From: Planctomycetia bacterium
GTDB lineage: Bacteria > Planctomycetota > GCA-002687715
NCBI GenBank assembly: GCA_005790545.1
Contig: SXUL01000122.1
Span: 7,249 to 71,248, forward strand
Direction of reading: 5' to 3'
DNA: 64,000 nt
The position numbers and the translations under genes are program-made. The notes under the pieces were generated by a model. That model was not told the origin of the DNA, did not search any database, and saw only the letters and a program-made list of their open reading frames with translations. The stretch's first letter is position 1, and each line of letters begins with the position of its first letter. Below are positions 9,761-16,117 of the stretch, piece after piece.

Positions 9761-10024
9761 ATGGCTCACAACAAACAGGCAAAGAAGCGCATCCGTACCA
9801 ACGAAGAGGCCCGCGTCCGCAACAAGGACAAGGCCTCGGCAATGAAGACCCAGGTGAAGAAGCTGCAGACGCTCATCGACGCCAAGGACAAGGCCGGCGC
9901 CGCGAAGGAACTGCCCAGCGCCTGCGCCCAGATCGACAAGTGCGCCAAGCACCGCATCATTCACCCCAACACCGCGGCCCGGAAAAAGGCCCTCCTCGCG
10001 AAGCGTGTGAACGCCATCGCCTGA
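9761..10024 (+). CDS. rpsT: 30S ribosomal protein S20
   Basis: MAHNKQAKKRIRTNEEARVRNKDKASAMKTQVKKL...; 87 aa. AGGAAAG RBS. Confidence 0.9.
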   Translation: MAHNKQAKKRIRTNEEARVRNKDKASAMKTQVKKLQTLIDAKDKAGAAKELPSACAQIDKCAKHRIIHPNTAARKKALLAKRVNAIA

Positions 10025-10034
10025 GGGGATTGAA

Positions 10035-10063
10035 CGCCGCCCCCCCGGGCGGCGCTTTCTCTT
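10035..10063 (+). terminator. rho-independent terminator of rpsT
   Basis: CGCCGCCCCCCCGGGCGGCG hairpin followed by CTTTCTCTT. Confidence 0.5.
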
Positions 10064-10067
10064 CCGG

Positions 10068-11006
10068 ATGAGTGTCAGCCGAGGACGCCGCTCGAAGCCA
10101 GCCCCGACTGGGTCACGCCCGCATCCGGTCGTGATTGCCAGCACGCTCGGCATTCACGCACTGCTGTTCGTGGTTGCGTCCAGGACGCTTGTCGAGCAAC
10201 CCGTTCCGTGCCTGAGAGCCAGCTTGCCCATCGAGGTGCGTCTGCGCTTTGAAGAGAGTGGGGCGGTTGCAATCACCGGCGACACTGCGCTTGCGCCAGA
10301 CACAGCGGCGCACCCGATCGCTCAAGCTGACATTCCACTCATCCAGCTTCAGACACCCGCGCCGGTTCAGAGCATCGAGCCTCGCAATGTTGATGCTCCC
10401 GCCCCGCTGTCGGCAAAGCTCGAGCAGTCTCTCGAGCCACCTGCCAACGTCGTGGAGGCCAACATTGGAACAGAGACTTCCGATGTACCGCCGGAGCTCC
10501 GCGCAACGATGGACGCTTCACCTGCTGCGCAAGAGGTCGAGATTCAACGCGCGGCGGGGATCGATGCGGGAAGCACAACCGCAACAACCACCGCCTCGCC
10601 TGTCGCAAAGACAGGGGCCGGCTTCACACCCGGCAACGGAATCGTGTCTGGCTCCGCCGCTGCGTCGCAAGATGAAGCACGCGACAGGAGTGGCCTCTCG
10701 AGTGCAGCAGGTTCCGCACAAGGCAACGCCCTTGGTGGCTTTGTTCCCGCAACTCTCCGCACGGCAGTGAGGGTCCCGCGCTTCCTCGCGCGTGCGGCCG
10801 CGCGCTTCTCCTGGCGCGGTGATATTGAAGTGCTCGTGGAACTCGATGCGGCCGGCCGACCGCTGGCAGCCGCCTTGCACCGCTCCTCCGGTCATACGGA
10901 CCTCGATGAGGCGGCCCGTCGCGCCGCGCTCGGATTCACCTTCGCGCCAGCCAGCAAGGACGGCGTCGCCGTGGCGACGCGCATCCTGGTGCCCTTCCGG
11001 TTCTGA
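10068..11006 (+). CDS. TonB-family energy transducer (C-terminal TonB domain)
   Basis: N-terminal TM helix, Pro/Ala-rich spacer and a C-terminal TonB-like fold (...RGDIEVLVELDAAGRPLAAALHRSSGHTDLDEAARRA...). Convergent with the TonB-dependent receptor. Confidence 0.55.
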   Translation: MSVSRGRRSKPAPTGSRPHPVVIASTLGIHALLFVVASRTLVEQPVPCLRASLPIEVRLRFEESGAVAITGDTALAPDTAAHPIAQADIPLIQLQTPAPVQSIEPRNVDAPAPLSAKLEQSLEPPANVVEANIGTETSDVPPELRATMDASPAAQEVEIQRAAGIDAGSTTATTTASPVAKTGAGFTPGNGIVSGSAAASQDEARDRSGLSSAAGSAQGNALGGFVPATLRTAVRVPRFLARAAARFSWRGDIEVLVELDAAGRPLAAALHRSSGHTDLDEAARRAALGFTFAPASKDGVAVATRILVPFRF

Positions 11007-13148
11007 TCAGAAGCGCGTTTCCACGCCCAGCACGAGGTTGAATCCAGCCTCCTGCACTCCGGATCCGTGAACGCGATACTCCACATCGCCGACATTGGCG
11101 AGAGAGAGCCACGCATCCGTCGCAGCGCTCACCTTCCAGCGCGCGTCGAGGCCGATGATCGTGTAACCCGGACTGCCTCCCGGCGGCATGCGCTGCGTGT
11201 CCCGGATGTCAGAAGCGGAAAGCCTGTCTTGGTGGGCCACCATCTGCACTGAGGGTTGCAATGTGAAGCGGCCATCATCGATCTCCCAACGCAGCCCGAG
11301 CATGCCCTGAATGGGTGTGAGTCGCGAGGGCGCACCGAACACAGGCGCCGTCGAGTTCGAGGGATAGTCGAGCATGGACCCATCCGTGAGCGTGCAGGTT
11401 CCGAACAGGGTCCAGTCCTTGCCGAGGTCGCGGCTGAGAGCGAGATCAACGCCTTGCAGAAAACCCTCTCCAGCATTCGACTTCGTGACCACCGTATTGG
11501 CGCCGATGGTCTGTGCGGTGCGCTGCCGGATGATGAGATCCTCACCGCGCGTGTGCCAGAGTGCGAGCGAGCCCTGCCACTCCTCCTCATCCATATGCAC
11601 ACCAACTTCAATGGTGAGGAATCGTTCGGGGTCGAGGCCGGCCACGGGCACTTCCACCTCGTTCGAGCGCGCCACGTCGAAGGCGGTGAGATCGCTCAAG
11701 GTGGGCGCACGGAACGACTGGGAGACACCAGCCCATGTGTTGCATGTATCGCTGAACTCGCGGTTCACACGCACCGAAGCTACGGCCGAGGCAAACTCAT
11801 CTTCGATGCGCATGAGCGCGTTGGGAGATACGCTGGTGTCAGCCACCCGGTCAGCGGAAACCGAAGCGAGACTTGCGCGCAATCCCAGCAGCGCGGACCA
11901 ACCGCTCCCCAGCTCGATGTCGTCCTGCACGAAGAGTCCGGCGAGGTCACTCGCGGCATCATCACCCACCGGGCCCTGAATGCCGGAACTCGTGTAGACA
12001 CCGCTCGCGTTGTAGTTGTCGCGCCACGAATCCACCCTGTCGTGCCACCAATCGAGGCCGAGCACGAGGTCGCCGACGGCGCTCTCGATCGTGCCCTGCA
12101 CGACCAGCCCGAGCGTATCCACGTCGAACCCCTGCATTTCCGTGTTGCCGTTCGAACGCACGCGCCGGGACGTGACGTCGAGTGTCTGTATGGCGACGCG
12201 GAACTCGAGACTGCTGAACAGTCCACCCAAGCCAGTTCCGGCAAGGCTGAGAGCGGCGAGCTCGCGGCCGTAGTCGTTTTCCAGCATGCGATCCGTGCCC
12301 ACGGTGGTGCCGTGATATGGGACCGCAAAGAGCGTGCGGTGAGTCCGGTCGATGCCGTCAAGATCGGCCAACTGCGCGAGGAGCTTCGCGGTCCACTGAT
12401 CGCTGATAGCCCACTGGATATTGGCGTCGGCGAAGCCTGTCCGGTAACCGGTCATGGGCTGGCGTCCGCCATTGCCCTGATCAAGATCTCCGAAGTGTGC
12501 AAAGCTCGTTCCTGCGACGAATCCGACCTTCCCCGTGGAGCCTGAGACCTCTCCCCGGCCGGTGATCGAAGCTTCTGCGGTCGAATAGCGACTGACGAAG
12601 CGGAACTCCGTCGCCGTGGCCTTCCGCGGATCGCGCAAGCGCGGAATGGCATTGATGACGCCACCGACTGCGTCGGATCCGAAGAGCACCGAGCCAGGCC
12701 CCATGACCACTTCCATGCGCTCTGTCGAAAGCGCATCCACGCTGCCGCTGTATTCGTTGGGACCATTGCGCCAGACCGAGTTGTTCAGCCGCAACCCGTC
12801 CACCAGCCACAGCGTGTGATACCCCGTCTGACCGCGGATGTACGGACTCGACTGGCCGTAGCTGGTGCTTTGGAGCGACACACCGGGCAGGCCTCGCAGC
12901 GCCTCCTGGATGCTGCGTGCTCCTTCGAGTTTCACGCCGGACACCACGTGCGCCTCGTGCGGCACACCGAGGAGTTGCACCGGCTCCCGCAGCGGCGTCA
13001 CGAGGATGGTGTCGATGCGCGTCACTGCTTCGTCCACAGCCTCACCGACCGTGCGCGGCTGTGGCGCCACGGGCGGGTCCTGAGCAAACAACACAACCGG
13101 CATCGCAAGAAGCAAGGCCAGACCATGGGATGGGCGCAGTGTCAGCAT
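11007..13148 (-). CDS. TonB-dependent outer-membrane receptor
   Basis: Signal peptide; plug-domain motifs; 22-strand barrel ending in the aromatic C-terminus ...LGVETRF. Start set at MLTLRPSHGLALLLAMPVVLFAQ. Confidence 0.8.
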   Translation of the reverse strand: MLTLRPSHGLALLLAMPVVLFAQDPPVAPQPRTVGEAVDEAVTRIDTILVTPLREPVQLLGVPHEAHVVSGVKLEGARSIQEALRGLPGVSLQSTSYGQSSPYIRGQTGYHTLWLVDGLRLNNSVWRNGPNEYSGSVDALSTERMEVVMGPGSVLFGSDAVGGVINAIPRLRDPRKATATEFRFVSRYSTAEASITGRGEVSGSTGKVGFVAGTSFAHFGDLDQGNGGRQPMTGYRTGFADANIQWAISDQWTAKLLAQLADLDGIDRTHRTLFAVPYHGTTVGTDRMLENDYGRELAALSLAGTGLGGLFSSLEFRVAIQTLDVTSRRVRSNGNTEMQGFDVDTLGLVVQGTIESAVGDLVLGLDWWHDRVDSWRDNYNASGVYTSSGIQGPVGDDAASDLAGLFVQDDIELGSGWSALLGLRASLASVSADRVADTSVSPNALMRIEDEFASAVASVRVNREFSDTCNTWAGVSQSFRAPTLSDLTAFDVARSNEVEVPVAGLDPERFLTIEVGVHMDEEEWQGSLALWHTRGEDLIIRQRTAQTIGANTVVTKSNAGEGFLQGVDLALSRDLGKDWTLFGTCTLTDGSMLDYPSNSTAPVFGAPSRLTPIQGMLGLRWEIDDGRFTLQPSVQMVAHQDRLSASDIRDTQRMPPGGSPGYTIIGLDARWKVSAATDAWLSLANVGDVEYRVHGSGVQEAGFNLVLGVETRF

Positions 13149-13190
13149 GATAGTGAGACGGTAAGCGCCTCGAACTGAGCTGGGGTTCAA

Positions 13191-13994
13191 TCAGCCGCGC
13201 GAAAAGAACCCGAGTCCCTGCGTCAACCGTCCGCCAGCGTGCCCAGCCACACCCACCGCGATGGCGGCTGCAGTCAGTGCCACCAGATAGAGCTTCCGCC
13301 AGAGTGACGAGCTTCCAGCCCAGCGGAGACACAGCAGCGCCGCGAGGAGTGCTCCGAAAGTTATCCAAGCCCAGAGCTCGTGAGTTTCGAGTACTGCGTG
13401 TCTTGCGCCGGTGAACTCAAGGCTCTCCTCGCGCTGTTCTCCGAGCACGATGGCCGCCATGGCGGAGGCTGCGGCGCCGAGGAGGAGCGGCACTGCCGCT
13501 GCATGTGGACGTGGTCGCCTGCGGACCAGCGCCAGCCATTCCAACCAGCACGCGAAGAGCGTGAGAGCCACGGGGAAGTGCACCATCACGACATGAAAGC
13601 GTCCGATCCACTCGAGGAACGGAATCTGATCGGGATCGGAGGCTGTCGGCGCGGAATTCGACGCAGCCCTTGCTGCGCCCTCCACCGCCCCCGCCACCGG
13701 TGCCACGCTGGGCGCCGCAACAACAACCTGCGCCGGAGCGACGCTGACGAACTGTGGAAGGGAGGCCAGATACTTCGTCGGATCCTTGAAGAACAAGCGC
13801 TTGCACTTCTTGCAGCAGAGATTGATGAGCTTGCCCTGATACTCGATGACGACGGGCTTTTCGCCGACTGGCTCGCCCTCCATCACAGGACAAATCTCAT
13901 TTGCGCCGCGTCGCGGCGGAGCGTCGTCCTCCTGCACTGTTGCGGCGGCGAGGAGGAGAGCCCCCAACGCAAGAAGTGCAAGGAGGATGCGCAT
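13191..13994 (-). CDS. signal-peptide protein with one cysteine-rich YHS-like domain fused to a polytopic membrane domain
   Basis: CPVMEGEPV-x13-LINLCCKKCKRLFFKDPTKYL resembles the YHS metal-binding domain but has CC in place of FCS. It is followed by 4-5 TM helices. Confidence 0.55.
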   Translation of the reverse strand: MRILLALLALGALLLAAATVQEDDAPPRRGANEICPVMEGEPVGEKPVVIEYQGKLINLCCKKCKRLFFKDPTKYLASLPQFVSVAPAQVVVAAPSVAPVAGAVEGAARAASNSAPTASDPDQIPFLEWIGRFHVVMVHFPVALTLFACWLEWLALVRRRPRPHAAAVPLLLGAAASAMAAIVLGEQREESLEFTGARHAVLETHELWAWITFGALLAALLCLRWAGSSSLWRKLYLVALTAAAIAVGVAGHAGGRLTQGLGFFSRG

Positions 13995-13996
13995 GG

Positions 13997-14614
13997 TCAG
14001 CGGCCTCCGCCACTCCCGGTACCACCACCCGCAGGAGCCTGACCATCCTTCTTGGGCTGTGGCAAGTTCTTCAGGTGCTTCTCGGCCTCGAAATCATCCA
14101 CGCAGGAATCGCAGCAGAGGTCGATGAGCTGTCCTTTGAAGAGAATGAAGTACGCGGCATCCACATCCTCCTCCGGCATCACCGGGCACTTGGTGTTGCC
14201 CACGACGACCAGATCCTTGTGAATCGCCATGGTGAGGAACCGCGCAGGACTCTGCTTGAACTTCCCGATGCACTTCTTGCAGCACAGTCCGACCTTGTGG
14301 CCCTGCCAAGTGATGCTCTGATCGGGCTTCACGGCCTTGGGCATGCAGGGACAACGTTCGTTCTTGACTTCGACGACTTTGTCTGCGGGATAGGCGACCT
14401 TCTTCGCCGCAGCAATGTCCTCGTTTGCCTTCTTCCGGCATTCCTTGCTGCACACGTGAACACGCTCTCCATCGGATTCGAGGTAGAGCTTCCGGTTCAC
14501 TTCCTTGCCATCCACGGGGCACTTCGCGTTGCCGTAGAAGGGCTGGACGGCTTTGTCTTGTGCGAAAAACACGCTTGCCACAGCGCACAACACGAGCAGG
14601 AAACGCATGGACAT
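13997..14614 (-). CDS. secreted protein made of three cysteine-rich YHS-like repeats
   Basis: Signal peptide MSMRFLLVLCAVASVFFAQ, then three repeats CPVDG...VHVCSKECRKK, CPCMP...VGLCCKKCIGKF and CPVMP...LIDLCCDSCVDDF. The long ORF-finder ORF (654 aa) is an antisense extension and was trimmed. Confidence 0.6.
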   Translation of the reverse strand: MSMRFLLVLCAVASVFFAQDKAVQPFYGNAKCPVDGKEVNRKLYLESDGERVHVCSKECRKKANEDIAAAKKVAYPADKVVEVKNERCPCMPKAVKPDQSITWQGHKVGLCCKKCIGKFKQSPARFLTMAIHKDLVVVGNTKCPVMPEEDVDAAYFILFKGQLIDLCCDSCVDDFEAEKHLKNLPQPKKDGQAPAGGGTGSGGGR

Positions 14615-14686
14615 CTTCAACTCTCCCTTGGCGCACATGGTACCAGCGGCCCTTGACGGGAAGCAGCCGCCACGGATGCTCACGTC

Positions 14687-16117
14687 ATGTCCTACGCGGC
14701 GTCCACACGCAGCCTCCTCTTGGTGATGATCGCAGCGTCCGCGCTGGCCTTGGGGTTCATTCTCTTCGTTCCACCGCTCCCGCAGGATCCCGGCTACCAC
14801 GCGTTTCACGCGCAATGCGAGTGGGCAGGCATTCCGCACGCAGAACTGGTGCTGACAAACATCTTCTTTCTTTGCGCTGCCGCGCGTGGCTCGGCCGCCA
14901 TCGCCGCAGCTCGACGCCGCGGTACGGGGATCCCGGAACTCTTGCCGTGGATCACGGCCACTGTCGGAGTGTTCCTCACGGCCTTCGGTTCCGCCTGGTA
15001 CCACCTCGCGCCTTCCAACGAGACTCTCGTCTTCGATCGCCTGCCCATGACCATCGCCTTTGCAGGCCTGACAGCCGGTGCGATCAAGGAGTGCCTCGGA
15101 GTCAAGGCAGCGCTCGCGACTCTCGTCGTCATGCTGCCCCTCGGCATCGCGAGCGTGCTTGCGTGGCATGCCTCGGAGCTTCGGGGCCATGGTGATCTCC
15201 GTTTCTACGGTCTGATTCAGTTCCTGCCTCTGCTGGTGCTGCCTCTCATCTTCTGGATGACGCGGCCGCGTTGCACAGGGCTCGGCGCGTTTCTGATCGC
15301 GCTCCTCTGCTACGTCGCCGCGAAGGTGCTGGAAGGTCTCGACGCCCAACTCGGCCATGCACTGCTCTTCTCGGGGCATGGCTGGAAACACATGCTCGCT
15401 GCCGGGGCGGCGGCCACGCTGCTCACCTTTCCGGCGCGCGCGCGCGCACTGCCCGCGCTCGGTGACGCTCTGTGCGCTCGCATCGTGAAGGTGCAAAAGG
15501 AGGATCTCTTTGGTGTGGTCGCGCGCGCGGACCTCGCCGGCACGCCCGTCGCACTGCGCGATATCCGCTCCGCTCGTTGGTGGACCAAACCCATTGCCAC
15601 GCTGCTTTTCTGGAACGAAGAGGTGGCGCTCGCAGCGCTTCACGACACGGACAAGAAACACCTGCCGACGCTGGTCGGGCGCGCGCGCGGCATGCTGCTC
15701 CGCAGTTGGATCAGTGGTCTGCCGCTCATGGATGCGCCGCCTCCCACGGTGGAGGCCTTTGTGGAAGCGCGCGCGCTGCTGCGGAAGCTCCGGCGTCTCG
15801 GCGTCACTCACAACGACACGCACAAGCCTCCGAACTGGATCGTGCTCGAGGATGGATCGCTCGCCCTCATCGATTTTCAGCTCGCCCGCGTGCATGTGCG
15901 TAGAGGACCGTTCTTCCGCATGCTGGCGCGCGAGGATCTGCGCCACCTCTTGAAACAACAACAGCGCTTCCGGCCGGGCTCGCTCACTCCGCGGGGGCTC
16001 TCGTTGCTGCGGAACAAGGCACCCACAGCCCGACTCTGGCGCGCGCTGGCGAAACCGCTCTATGTGCTGGTGACTCGGAAACTCCTCAAATGGCAGGACC
16101 GCGAGGGCCGCGGCTGA
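14687..16117 (+). CDS. fusion protein: ceramidase-like 7-TM domain + Kdo/WaaP-family (lipopolysaccharide kinase-like) kinase domain
   Basis: The N-terminal 250 aa are polytopic with a WYHL...FDRLPM motif, as in the alkaline ceramidase family. The C-terminal domain has GVTHNDTHKPPNWIVLEDGSLALIDFQLA, the HxD...N...IDFxxA catalytic core of Kdo kinase/RIO-like kinases. Confidence 0.5.
   Translation: MSYAASTRSLLLVMIAASALALGFILFVPPLPQDPGYHAFHAQCEWAGIPHAELVLTNIFFLCAAARGSAAIAAARRRGTGIPELLPWITATVGVFLTAFGSAWYHLAPSNETLVFDRLPMTIAFAGLTAGAIKECLGVKAALATLVVMLPLGIASVLAWHASELRGHGDLRFYGLIQFLPLLVLPLIFWMTRPRCTGLGAFLIALLCYVAAKVLEGLDAQLGHALLFSGHGWKHMLAAGAAATLLTFPARARALPALGDALCARIVKVQKEDLFGVVARADLAGTPVALRDIRSARWWTKPIATLLFWNEEVALAALHDTDKKHLPTLVGRARGMLLRSWISGLPLMDAPPPTVEAFVEARALLRKLRRLGVTHNDTHKPPNWIVLEDGSLALIDFQLARVHVRRGPFFRMLAREDLRHLLKQQQRFRPGSLTPRGLSLLRNKAPTARLWRALAKPLYVLVTRKLLKWQDREGRG

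What the first reader, a model, noticed from the sequence alone, without database searches (positions are those of the whole stretch)
10068..14614. Putative metal-uptake operon: two proteins built from cysteine-rich YHS-like repeats upstream of a TonB-dependent receptor, with a convergent TonB gene
Genes at 13997-14614 (three repeats, secreted) and 13191-13994 (one repeat plus a polytopic membrane domain) carry four copies of the pattern CP[VC]x(10-16)[LV]x[LV]CCxxCxxxF, one of which (VHVCSKECRKK) is more divergent. It looks like the YHS domain (DPVCGM...FCSxxC...F, a copper/metal site), but the FCS is replaced by a Cys-Cys doublet. They are followed at a 0-nt spacing by a TonB-dependent receptor, and a TonB C-terminal-domain protein sits convergently next door. 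This suggests a periplasmic metal-shuttle (copper, possibly another thiophilic metal) import pathway using an unusual YHS variant.
Basis: partly seen in the sequence, partly recalled or inferred. Interest (0 to 1): 0.6.

Follow-up and report, generated by a model that had tools for sequence, protein, structure and literature searches.

The report
Cysteine-rich YHS copper module beside TonB receptor
A planctomycete operon pairs an outer-membrane TonB-dependent importer with two periplasm-facing proteins built from an unusual four-cysteine form of the YHS metal-binding domain. Relatives of these proteins sit next to copper pumps, so this is probably an undescribed copper-handling route, but it is untested.

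Summary
Window 13997-14614(-) encodes a secreted 205-aa protein with three Cys-rich repeats. Window 13191-13994(-) encodes one such repeat, a linker and a 4-helix DUF2231 membrane domain. A TonB-dependent receptor follows at 11007-13190(-), and a convergent TonB gene lies at 10068-11006(+).

The repeats belong to the YHS/TRASH superfamily. The Ser of 'FCS' is replaced by Cys in 110 of 115 family repeats, and the usual first ligand (Asp/Cys) is Asn or Gln in 66 of 115.

Copper is supported only indirectly. More distant homologues (42% identity or less) sit directly after CusA/CusB-type efflux pumps (15 loci). Some lie next to CopA-type P1B ATPases (4 loci). In one locus the whole two-gene module follows a Cus-type pump.

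The receptor linkage is confined to one planctomycete lineage. It is kept down to 47% identity, but 79 other homologues of the receptor have no YHS gene nearby. The receptor lacks the OprC copper motif and fails both the copper-receptor and heme-receptor models.

Best reading, about 45% likely: a periplasmic Cu(I) relay, ancestrally tied to efflux, re-attached to an importer for copper acquisition. I rate it a new variant of a known kind, of moderate interest. No metal binding, regulation or transport direction has been shown.

The parts
13997..14614 (-). yhs3: secreted 205-aa protein with a signal peptide (MSMRFLLVLCAVASVFFA|QDK), three YHS/TRASH-type repeats and a Gly-rich tail
   Evidence: Translation. 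Pfam YHS 30.1 bits and TRASH_HVO_1752_C 25.8 bits. The AlphaFold2 model has pLDDT 83.8 and shows three beta-hairpin plus helix units. All Cys are invariant in 9 homologues.
14438..14521 (-). Repeat 1 (C32-P ... C55-S-K-E-C59), the only repeat with CS instead of CC
14270..14353 (-). Repeat 2 (C88-P-C-M ... C111-C112-K-K-C115)
14102..14188 (-). Repeat 3 (C143-P-V-M ... C167-C168-D-S-C171)
13191..13994 (-). yhs-DUF2231: 267-aa protein with a signal peptide, one YHS repeat, an Ala/Pro/Val-rich linker of about 50 aa, and a 4-TM DUF2231 bundle
   Evidence: Pfam DUF2231 32.4 bits (cut-off 26.4) and YHS 22 bits. In the AlphaFold2 model the TM bundle has pLDDT of about 90. Alignment A2.
13803..13892 (-). 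Repeat 4 (N32-x-x-C35-P-V-M-E-G-E ... C60-C61-K-K-C64) in the membrane protein
13194..13613 (-). DUF2231 membrane domain with invariant His134, His139 (HxxxxHFP) and His205. These, plus H252, are predicted to lie at the periplasmic ends of TM1, TM3 and TM4.
   Evidence: The Arg-rich loops at 158-166 and 226-229 are taken as cytoplasmic under the positive-inside rule; this topology is an inference.
11007..13190 (-). TonB-dependent receptor (Plug plus 22-strand-type barrel). The probable true start is ATG 13148. It has a TonB-box-like DTILVTP.
   Evidence: Pfam Plug 69.9 bits and barrel 106.2 bits. NCBIfam best match TonB-hemin 152.7 bits, below the 316.85 cut-off; TonB-copper 67.9 bits, below 472. 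P0019 start. Sequence.
10068..11006 (+). TonB-family protein, convergent with the receptor, with abutting stop codons
   Evidence: TonB_C 43.9 bits. TIGR01352 40.8 bits. Sequence TGA|TCA.
14615..14686 (.). Divergent 72-nt intergenic region. It holds the conserved motif GTCAAGGGSSGCTGRTAY (about 14637-14657, minus strand), including an extended -10-like TGnTAYnAT, followed by an RBS.
   Evidence: Alignment of 5 orthologous regions. No known metalloregulator box was found.

Best explanation
This is a copper-acquisition operon. Its importer is a planctomycete-specific TonB-dependent receptor. Its periplasmic side is a Cys-rich YHS relay that relatives use with copper exporters.

Proposed mechanism:
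1. The receptor, energised by the adjacent TonB, brings copper across the outer membrane, either as an ion or as a small complex.
2. The soluble three-site YHS protein captures Cu(I) on its Cys sites. Each site has one Cys in N/Q-x-x-C-P plus C-C-x-x-C; repeat 1 of the window protein has C-S-x-x-C.
3. That protein hands the metal to the tethered YHS domain of the inner-membrane DUF2231 protein.
4. The periplasm-facing His cluster of DUF2231 then accepts the metal, for transfer into the cell or to membrane cuproenzymes.

Shown: gene content and order, domain membership, secretion signals, conservation of the metal-ligand candidates, and the association of homologues with Cus/CopA-type copper gear.

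Inferred: copper as the metal, the order of hand-offs, the import direction and the role of DUF2231.
For: - Domain identity. 33 of 58 single repeats individually hit Pfam YHS (best E 4.8e-10) and 23 hit TRASH. A repeat profile aligns 'yfCCkkC' onto 'FCSDGC' of the phenol hydroxylase YHS region (E 1.2e-3).
- Copper link. Triple-YHS homologues L017 and L018 (41-42% identity) lie between a CusA-like RND pump and a CopA-type ATPase. The pump scores 792 bits on TIGR00914, and 655 bits against E. coli CusA versus 406 against ZneA. The ATPase scores 583-593 bits on TIGR01511 (cut-off 397).
- 15 loci have the RND pump within 5 kb. In 11 of them it ends 132 nt or less upstream on the same strand, and CusB-like adaptors carrying HMBD domains are also present.
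- YHS-DUF2231 homologues P0017 and P0018 are each convergent with a CopA-type ATPase.
- In L021 the gene order is RND pump, 4xYHS, YHS-DUF2231.
- The L020 homologue also carries an HMBD-like motif and His-rich tails.
- Receptor linkage. It is present in every locus of the window's clade and in L008-L010. There the YHS3 homologue is 47% identical, the receptor orthologue scores 417 bits, the upstream gene differs and there is no DUF2231 gene.
- Operon-like packing: a 2-nt gap, then 0-42 nt.
- Experimental precedent for Cu binding by a YHS domain: PMC4626032.
- Precedent for TonB-dependent copper uptake (NosA/OprC, MbnT): PMC7558416.
Against: - No experiment has been done on this family.
- The receptor has no conserved Cys/Met cluster comparable to OprC's CxxxM-HxM.
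- It scores better on the heme-receptor model than on the copper-receptor model, and reaches neither cut-off.
- Of 80 further receptor homologues examined, 79 have no YHS neighbour. They sit instead with TonB and a sigma-54 two-component system.
- The family's usual partners are exporters.
- About 20 of 38 genomic YHS loci have no metal gene nearby.
- Within the close clade the whole neighbourhood is syntenic, so adjacency there is weak evidence.
- No copper-regulator box was found upstream.
- Four-Cys sites can equally hold structural Zn. L24e binds Cd through four Cys (PMC4626032).
Confidence: 0.45

Rival explanations
1. Copper defence rather than acquisition. The YHS pair buffers or sequesters periplasmic Cu(I), as its relatives do beside Cus/CopA exporters. 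The receptor imports something else, such as a heme-like or metallophore substrate. Co-expression only protects the periplasm during uptake, or the two are simply co-regulated.
For: The ancestral and commonest context of the family is efflux gear. The receptor's best family match is the heme/hemoglobin-receptor group and the closest solved structure is PhuR. The receptor lacks copper-ligand motifs.
Against: No exporter lies in the 64-kb window. The tight operon with an importer is kept at 47% identity even after loss of the DUF2231 gene. The heme-receptor model cut-off is not reached, and there is no His between the FRAP and NPNL-like motifs (sequence).
Confidence: 0.2
2. Same architecture, but the cargo is another thiophilic metal (Zn, Cd, Ag, Co/Ni or Hg). 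One example would be zinc piracy like ZnuD, with Cys4 sites that suit Zn(II).
For: Cys4 TRASH sites bind Cd/Zn in L24e (PMC4626032). The P1B ATPases next to homologues also pass the Cd/Zn subfamily cut-off, scoring 393-428 bits on TIGR01512 against a cut-off of 313.5. CusA/CzcA belong to one family model.
Against: The neighbouring ATPases score markedly higher on the Cu model and on CopA (529-593 bits). The RND pump scores higher on CusA than on ZneA (655 versus 406 bits). The adaptor's best match is CusB. The ZnuD model scores only 33.6 bits against a cut-off of 950.
Confidence: 0.15
3. A redox module. DUF2231 is a His-ligated electron-transfer membrane domain, possibly holding heme b. The Cys4 YHS units are redox or metal centres. 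Together they reduce the receptor's cargo in the periplasm, such as Cu(II) or a ferric chelate. This would resemble the inner-membrane reductases encoded next to some TonB-dependent receptors, such as the FoxB/PepSY-TM type (recalled from my own knowledge, not tested here).
For: Among 109 near DUF2231 relatives with extra domains, 34 carry PSCyt1 and 17 carry Cytochrome_CBB3 (both c-type cytochromes), 29 carry YHS and 1 carries HMBD. Three invariant His lie in the outer-leaflet half of the bundle.
Against: Foldseek against the PDB gave no significant match and no FoxB-type hit. All the His lie on one side of the membrane, which is enough for at most one heme. The soluble 3xYHS protein also occurs without DUF2231, next to pumps.
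Confidence: 0.12
4. No functional link. The YHS genes and the receptor are neighbours through inherited synteny in one lineage only.
For: The entire 15-kb neighbourhood is conserved in the close clade, from biotin carboxylase to ribF. There is no linkage outside that lineage.
Against: The genes share a strand with minimal gaps and a single conserved upstream promoter-like region. Adjacency persists in L008-L010, where the upstream neighbour differs.
Confidence: 0.08

Closest known systems
YHS / TRASH metal-binding domains (Pfam PF04945, PF24273, PF08394; Ettema et al. 2003, cited in PMC4626032)
   Same: About 45-50 aa, a beta-hairpin plus helix unit, with a Cys ... C-x3-C ligand pattern and significant HMM matches. 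Links to copper ATPases and metal trafficking.
   Different: Exported rather than cytosolic, and in tandem arrays of 1 to 4 units. The Ser of 'FCS' is Cys in 110 of 115 repeats. The first ligand position (Asp/Cys) is Asn or Gln in 66 of 115 repeats. The window proteins fall just below the Pfam YHS cut-off.
OprC / NosA TonB-dependent copper receptors
   Same: TonB-dependent outer-membrane importers implicated in copper supply (PMC7558416). The architecture is the same: Plug plus barrel.
   Different: TIGR01778 scores 67.9 bits against a cut-off of 472. There is no conserved CxxxM-HxM-type Cys/Met/His cluster. OprC is not known to be encoded with YHS proteins.
CusF / SilF periplasmic Cu(I)/Ag(I) chaperones of CusCFBA
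   Same: Small secreted metal-binding proteins encoded inside or next to CusBA-type operons. The distant YHS homologues occupy the same genomic niche.
   Different: Unrelated fold and ligands. CusF is an OB fold using Met/His/Trp; here the units are Cys-based treble-clef-like. In the window the partner is an importer, not CusBA.
CopC-CopD / YcnJ (periplasmic copper-binding domain plus inner-membrane His-rich permease, proposed copper import)
   Same: A periplasmic metal-binding domain fused or paired with a polytopic membrane domain, implicated in copper uptake (PMC7558416).
   Different: No sequence relationship. DUF2231 has 4 TM helices, whereas the review describes PcoD/CopD as having 8. 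YHS is not a cupredoxin-like CopC.
MbnT-MbnE methanobactin uptake
   Same: A TonB-dependent receptor plus a periplasmic binding protein for copper acquisition (PMC7558416).
   Different: No chalkophore biosynthesis genes are present. The periplasmic partner is a Cys-rich metal binder, not an OppA-like peptide binder.

Membership tests
YHS domain (PF04945) / TRASH superfamily | Significant match to the family HMM at or above the curated cut-off | tested here: inconclusive
   The window proteins score 30.1 and 22.0 bits against a cut-off of 30.3. Homologues pass: P0007 34.1, P0018 32.9 and P0009 30.5 bits on YHS, and P0009 48 bits on TRASH_HVO_1752_C against a cut-off of 27. 33 of 58 isolated repeats hit YHS at E <= 0.01.
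YHS domain (PF04945) / TRASH superfamily | Ligand pattern Cys ... Cys-x3-Cys | tested here: met
   C7, C30 and C34 are invariant in the 58-repeat alignment. All are invariant in A1 and A2.
YHS domain (PF04945) / TRASH superfamily | First ligand Asp or Cys three residues before the first Cys (D-P-V-C), and the 'FCS' Ser | tested here: not met
   Position -3 is Q (36), N (30), L (27) or A (16) of 115 repeats. The Ser position is Cys in 110 of 115. The definition of the ligand set comes from PMC4626032.
YHS domain (PF04945) / TRASH superfamily | Actual metal binding | not testable with these tools
   Needs purified protein.
TonB-dependent receptor | Plug domain, beta-barrel and TonB box | tested here: met
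   Plug 69.9 bits and barrel 106.2 bits. DTILVTP follows the signal peptide.
TonB-dependent copper receptor (OprC/NosA, TIGR01778) | Equivalog HMM cut-off and the CxxxM-HxM copper site | tested here: not met
   67.9 bits against a cut-off of 472.45. No conserved Cys or Met in the YHS-linked clade. OprC is absent from the PDB sequence hits.
TonB-dependent heme/hemoglobin receptor (TIGR01785) | Subfamily HMM cut-off, and a conserved His between the FRAP and NPNL boxes | tested here: not met
   152.7 bits against a cut-off of 316.85. The segment FRAPTLSDLTAFDVARSNEVEVPVAGLDPE has no His. The requirement for that His is from my own knowledge.
DUF2231 (PF09990) | HMM cut-off and the HxxxxHFP motif | tested here: met
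   32.4 bits against a cut-off of 26.4. H134, H139, F140, P141 and H205 are invariant.
TonB (TonB_C, TIGR01352) | C-terminal TonB domain plus an N-terminal TM anchor | tested here: met
   43.9 and 40.8 bits, both above cut-off. Hydrophobic segment HPVVIASTLGIHALLFVVA.
CusF-type chaperone | Sequence or fold membership | tested here: not met
   No CusF-family Pfam or NCBIfam hit. The similarity is one of genomic position only.

The most novel reading that the evidence does not exclude
The CC-type YHS repeat proteins are a previously unrecognised family of periplasmic Cu(I) chaperones. They serve both exporters (CusBA, CopA) and, in this lineage, a TonB-dependent importer. DUF2231, a widespread domain of unknown function, is their inner-membrane copper acceptor or transporter. 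That would give a complete new outer-membrane-to-inner-membrane copper uptake route in Planctomycetota.
Probability: 0.3. Interest if true: 0.7.

Novelty: new variant of a known kind. Interest (0 to 1): 0.5.

Why it matters
How copper crosses the periplasm and inner membrane after TonB-dependent uptake is poorly understood. The 2020 review PMC7558416 lists only CcoA-type and putative YcnJ/CopD routes, and it does not mention YHS or TRASH at all.

If this reading is right, it would:
- Assign a role to exported YHS domains, which have so far been discussed mainly as cytosolic modules.
- Suggest a function for DUF2231, which has at least 1010 representative clusters.
- Show one metal-relay module re-used between efflux and influx systems.
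- Flag a family that gene callers sometimes miss in high-GC MAGs.

Tried and rejected
- Known operator consensus sequences (Fur, CueR, CsoR, Zur, CopY, sigma-54) were not found in 14560-14760.
- I looked for clade-specific Cys, Met or His in the receptor. Only a few His (232, 546, 653) are clade-specific, and there is no Cys/Met site.
- I compared the sigma-54 two-component systems beside receptor homologues with those beside copA/YHS-DUF2231 loci. The similarity is only generic for the family, at 35-42%.
- The RND pump beside the 49%-identical receptor homologue (L133) is AcrB-type, not Cus, so it is uninformative.
- L134 has a 45%-identical receptor in the syntenic position, but the contig is cut 197 nt upstream, so linkage there is undecidable.
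- Literature searches found no paper that combines YHS domains with TonB-dependent receptors or Cus systems in a functional sense, and nothing useful on DUF2231.


Full report
**What is there**

The window is 63-69% G+C. On the minus strand, three genes run head to tail:
- 13997-14614 encodes a 205-aa protein.
- 13191-13994 encodes a 267-aa protein.
- 11007-13190 encodes a 727-aa ORF. Its probable true start is ATG 13148, which is where the 100%-identical public protein P0019 begins.

On the plus strand, 10068-11006 encodes a 312-aa protein whose stop codon abuts that of the 727-aa gene.

Pfam and NCBIfam assign the following:
- The 205-aa protein scores 30.1 bits on YHS (cut-off 30.3) and 25.8 bits on TRASH.
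- The 267-aa protein scores 32.4 bits on DUF2231 (cut-off 26.4) and 22 bits on YHS.
- The 727-aa protein has Plug plus TonB_dep_Rec_b-barrel.
- The plus-strand protein has TonB_C.

Both YHS proteins start with typical signal peptides, and a Shine-Dalgarno-like GGGAGAG precedes the first gene. A regex scan of all six-frame ORFs in the window finds them, plus only two hits in spurious antisense ORFs.

**The repeat is a real YHS/TRASH variant**

Homologues are rare. Each of the two proteins has 9 homologues among 5.8 billion sequences in the word-indexed search. Every motif Cys is invariant down to 25-32% identity.

A pattern scan of GTDB species genomes recovered 38 loci. Most are Planctomycetota and Phycisphaerae, with a few from Acidobacteriota, Zixibacteria and Thermodesulfobacteriota.

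Across 115 distinct repeats from these loci:
- The residue after the second Cys is Cys in 110 and Ser in 5.
- The residue three positions before the first Cys is Gln, Asn, Leu or Ala. In canonical YHS/TRASH this position is Asp or Cys and is counted as the first metal ligand (PMC4626032).

Scanned one by one, 33 of 58 repeats hit Pfam YHS (best E 4.8e-10), 23 hit TRASH_HVO_1752_C and 14 hit Arc_trans_TRASH. A profile of the repeats aligns 'yfCCkkC' onto 'FCSDGC' of the YHS region of phenol hydroxylase (E 1.2e-3).

So the variant is S->C within a retained C-x3-C pair, together with loss of the usual first ligand. My inference is that the extra Cys takes over as the fourth ligand.

Repeat 1 of the window protein (VHVCSKEC) is the exception. 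It is a reversion specific to this clade, since distant relatives carry CC there.

The AlphaFold2 model of the 205-aa protein is confident (pLDDT 83.8) and shows three hairpin-plus-helix units. Foldseek against the PDB gave only weak hits to YHS regions, L24e and zinc fingers, none significant.

**The membrane protein**

The model has a well-predicted four-helix bundle (pLDDT about 90). Arg-rich loops at residues 158-166 and 226-229 fit a topology in which the N-terminal YHS domain is periplasmic. In that topology His134, His139 (HxxxxHFP), His205 and His252 all lie toward the periplasmic ends of the helices. This topology is an inference.

A full HMMER scan with the DUF2231 part found 1010 representative clusters at E <= 1e-3. 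Three His are invariant in 109 of them. Among those 109, the extra domains are c-type cytochromes (34 PSCyt1, 17 Cytochrome_CBB3), YHS (29) and HMBD (1).

DUF2231 therefore looks like a membrane platform that works with an exchangeable periplasmic metal or redox domain. What it does remains unknown. No fold match was significant, and nothing useful exists in the searchable literature.

**Context of relatives: the main new evidence**

Receptor linkage:
- Close relatives (57-100% receptor identity; L001-L007, L015, L016, L053, L135) keep the order yhs3, yhs-DUF2231, receptor, convergent tonB. They also keep the whole surrounding neighbourhood, so this adjacency alone is weak evidence.
- L008-L010 are more telling. 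There the YHS3 homologue is 47% identical and is followed directly by an orthologous receptor (417 bits). The upstream gene is different and there is no DUF2231 gene.

Beyond that lineage the partners change:
- L017 and L018 (41-42% identity) sit between an RND pump and a P1B ATPase. The pump passes the CusA/CzcA model at 792 bits, and scores 655 bits against E. coli CusA versus 406 against ZneA. The ATPase passes the copper subfamily model at 583-593 bits (cut-off 397), with CopA as its best equivalog.
- 15 loci have this RND pump within 5 kb. In 11 it ends 132 nt or less upstream on the same strand. CusB-like adaptors carrying HMBD domains accompany it.
- Distant YHS-DUF2231 homologues P0017 and P0018 are each convergent with a CopA-type ATPase.
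- In L021 the order is RND pump, 4xYHS, YHS-DUF2231. The two-gene module of the window therefore also exists behind a Cus-type pump.
- One homologue (L020) carries an HMBD-like CPM...CPKCGM motif and His-rich tails.

About 20 loci, mostly a P0009-like subgroup, have no recognisable metal gene nearby.

**The receptor**

It belongs to a large family, mostly planctomycete. At least 169 homologues share 35-49% identity, and JGI labels them as hemoglobin/transferrin/lactoferrin receptors.
- Its best NCBIfam match is the heme/hemoglobin receptor subfamily, at 152.7 bits against a cut-off of 316.85. The copper-receptor equivalog scores 67.9 bits against a cut-off of 472.
- The closest solved chains are PhuR, Cir and BtuB, all weak matches.
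- No Cys or Met is conserved in the YHS-linked clade, so there is nothing like OprC's CxxxM-HxM site (motif from PMC7558416).
- Of 80 metagenomic loci retrieved with a receptor alignment, only the one from the window's clade has YHS genes. The others typically have an adjacent TonB (22 loci) and a sigma-54 two-component system upstream (about 21 loci).

The substrate of this receptor family is therefore unknown. The YHS linkage is a lineage-specific addition.

**Regulation**

The 72-nt divergent intergenic region contains the motif GTCAAGGGSSGCTGRTAY, conserved across orthologues, with an extended -10-like TGnTAYnAT. No Fur, CueR, CsoR, Zur, CopY or sigma-54 consensus was found. The sigma-70-type scan found nothing there. 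Planctomycete promoters are not covered by that scan.

**Interpretation**

The most economical reading has three parts:
1. CC-type YHS proteins are periplasmic binders of a thiophilic metal. Copper is favoured by the Cus/CopA context and by the one biochemical study of a YHS domain (PMC4626032).
2. They normally accompany exporters.
3. In one planctomycete lineage they have been placed in an operon with a TonB-dependent importer.

Because TonB-dependent receptors import, I favour copper acquisition through a four-site relay ending at the DUF2231 His cluster, with confidence of about 0.45.

The rivals are:
- Copper defence, with an unrelated receptor cargo (0.20).
- Another thiophilic metal (0.15).
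- A redox or reductase role for YHS-DUF2231, suggested by the cytochrome c fusions (0.12).
- Mere synteny (0.08).

None of these is excluded. Metal binding, regulation and transport direction are all untested.

**Comparison and novelty**

The domains (YHS/TRASH, TonB-dependent receptor, TonB, DUF2231) are known, and TonB-dependent copper uptake is known (NosA/OprC, MbnT; PMC7558416). Four things are not described in the literature I could search:
- The exported tandem CC-type YHS family.
- Its systematic placement beside Cus/CopA systems.
- Its pairing with DUF2231.
- Its attachment to a receptor.

I class this as a new variant of a known kind, with moderate interest (0.5).

Noticed in passing
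window 14687-16117 (+): The divergent neighbour is a fusion. The N-terminal half is 7-TM and ceramidase-like (PF05875, 23 bits, below cut-off). The C-terminal half is Ser/Thr- or RIO-type kinase-like (NF006620, 179.7 bits, below cut-off). It is conserved next to the YHS operon in all close loci.
   Followed up: partly
window 11004-11009: The stop codons of the convergent tonB and receptor genes abut with no intergenic base (TGA|TCA). The same zero spacing is seen in L001, L002, L003, L005 and L006, so the transcripts must overlap or end inside the opposing gene.
   Followed up: partly
L135 339-920 (-), equivalent to window 13901-14656 (+): One public gene call annotates the long antisense ORF instead of the YHS3 gene. 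In high-GC MAGs this family is probably under-annotated.
   Followed up: no
DUF2231 relatives P0140-P0287 (alignment A5): DUF2231 is often fused to planctomycete cytochrome c (34 PSCyt1, 17 Cytochrome_CBB3 of 109), to YHS (29) or to HMBD (1). Some are N-terminal parts of PSCyt2/PSD1 giants of over 900 aa. Three His are invariant.
   Followed up: partly
L017 4404-7356; L018 3376-10895: These loci form a compact copper-resistance cluster: a CusA-like RND pump, a secreted 3xYHS protein, then a CopA-type ATPase with an N-terminal HMBD. The YHS protein occupies the niche that CusF has in E. coli.
   Followed up: partly
L020 7692-8663: This YHS-repeat protein has an additional C-terminal HMBD-like motif (YICPM...CPKCGM) and His-rich N- and C-terminal tails.
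   Followed up: no
L133 2577-3185; L014 1544-1924: A TPMT/TehB-like methyltransferase lies directly downstream of a 49%-identical receptor homologue, and another lies downstream of a distant YHS-repeat protein. This may hint at a link to chalcogen or metalloid handling. It remains unexplained.
   Followed up: no
L054-L132 (receptor homologues): The wider receptor family is usually preceded by a sigma-54-dependent two-component system (HAMP/HisKA kinase plus an NtrC-type regulator) and flanked by its own TonB. Its substrate is unknown.
   Followed up: partly
window 14637-14657 (-): The motif GTCAAGGGSSGCTGRTAY upstream of yhs3 is conserved across orthologues at 57-100% receptor identity. It may be a promoter or an operator.
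   Followed up: partly
window 10035-10054 (+): A strong GC-rich hairpin with a T-rich tail lies right after rpsT (9761-10024) and 14 nt before the tonB start. tonB therefore probably has its own promoter or depends on read-through.
   Followed up: no
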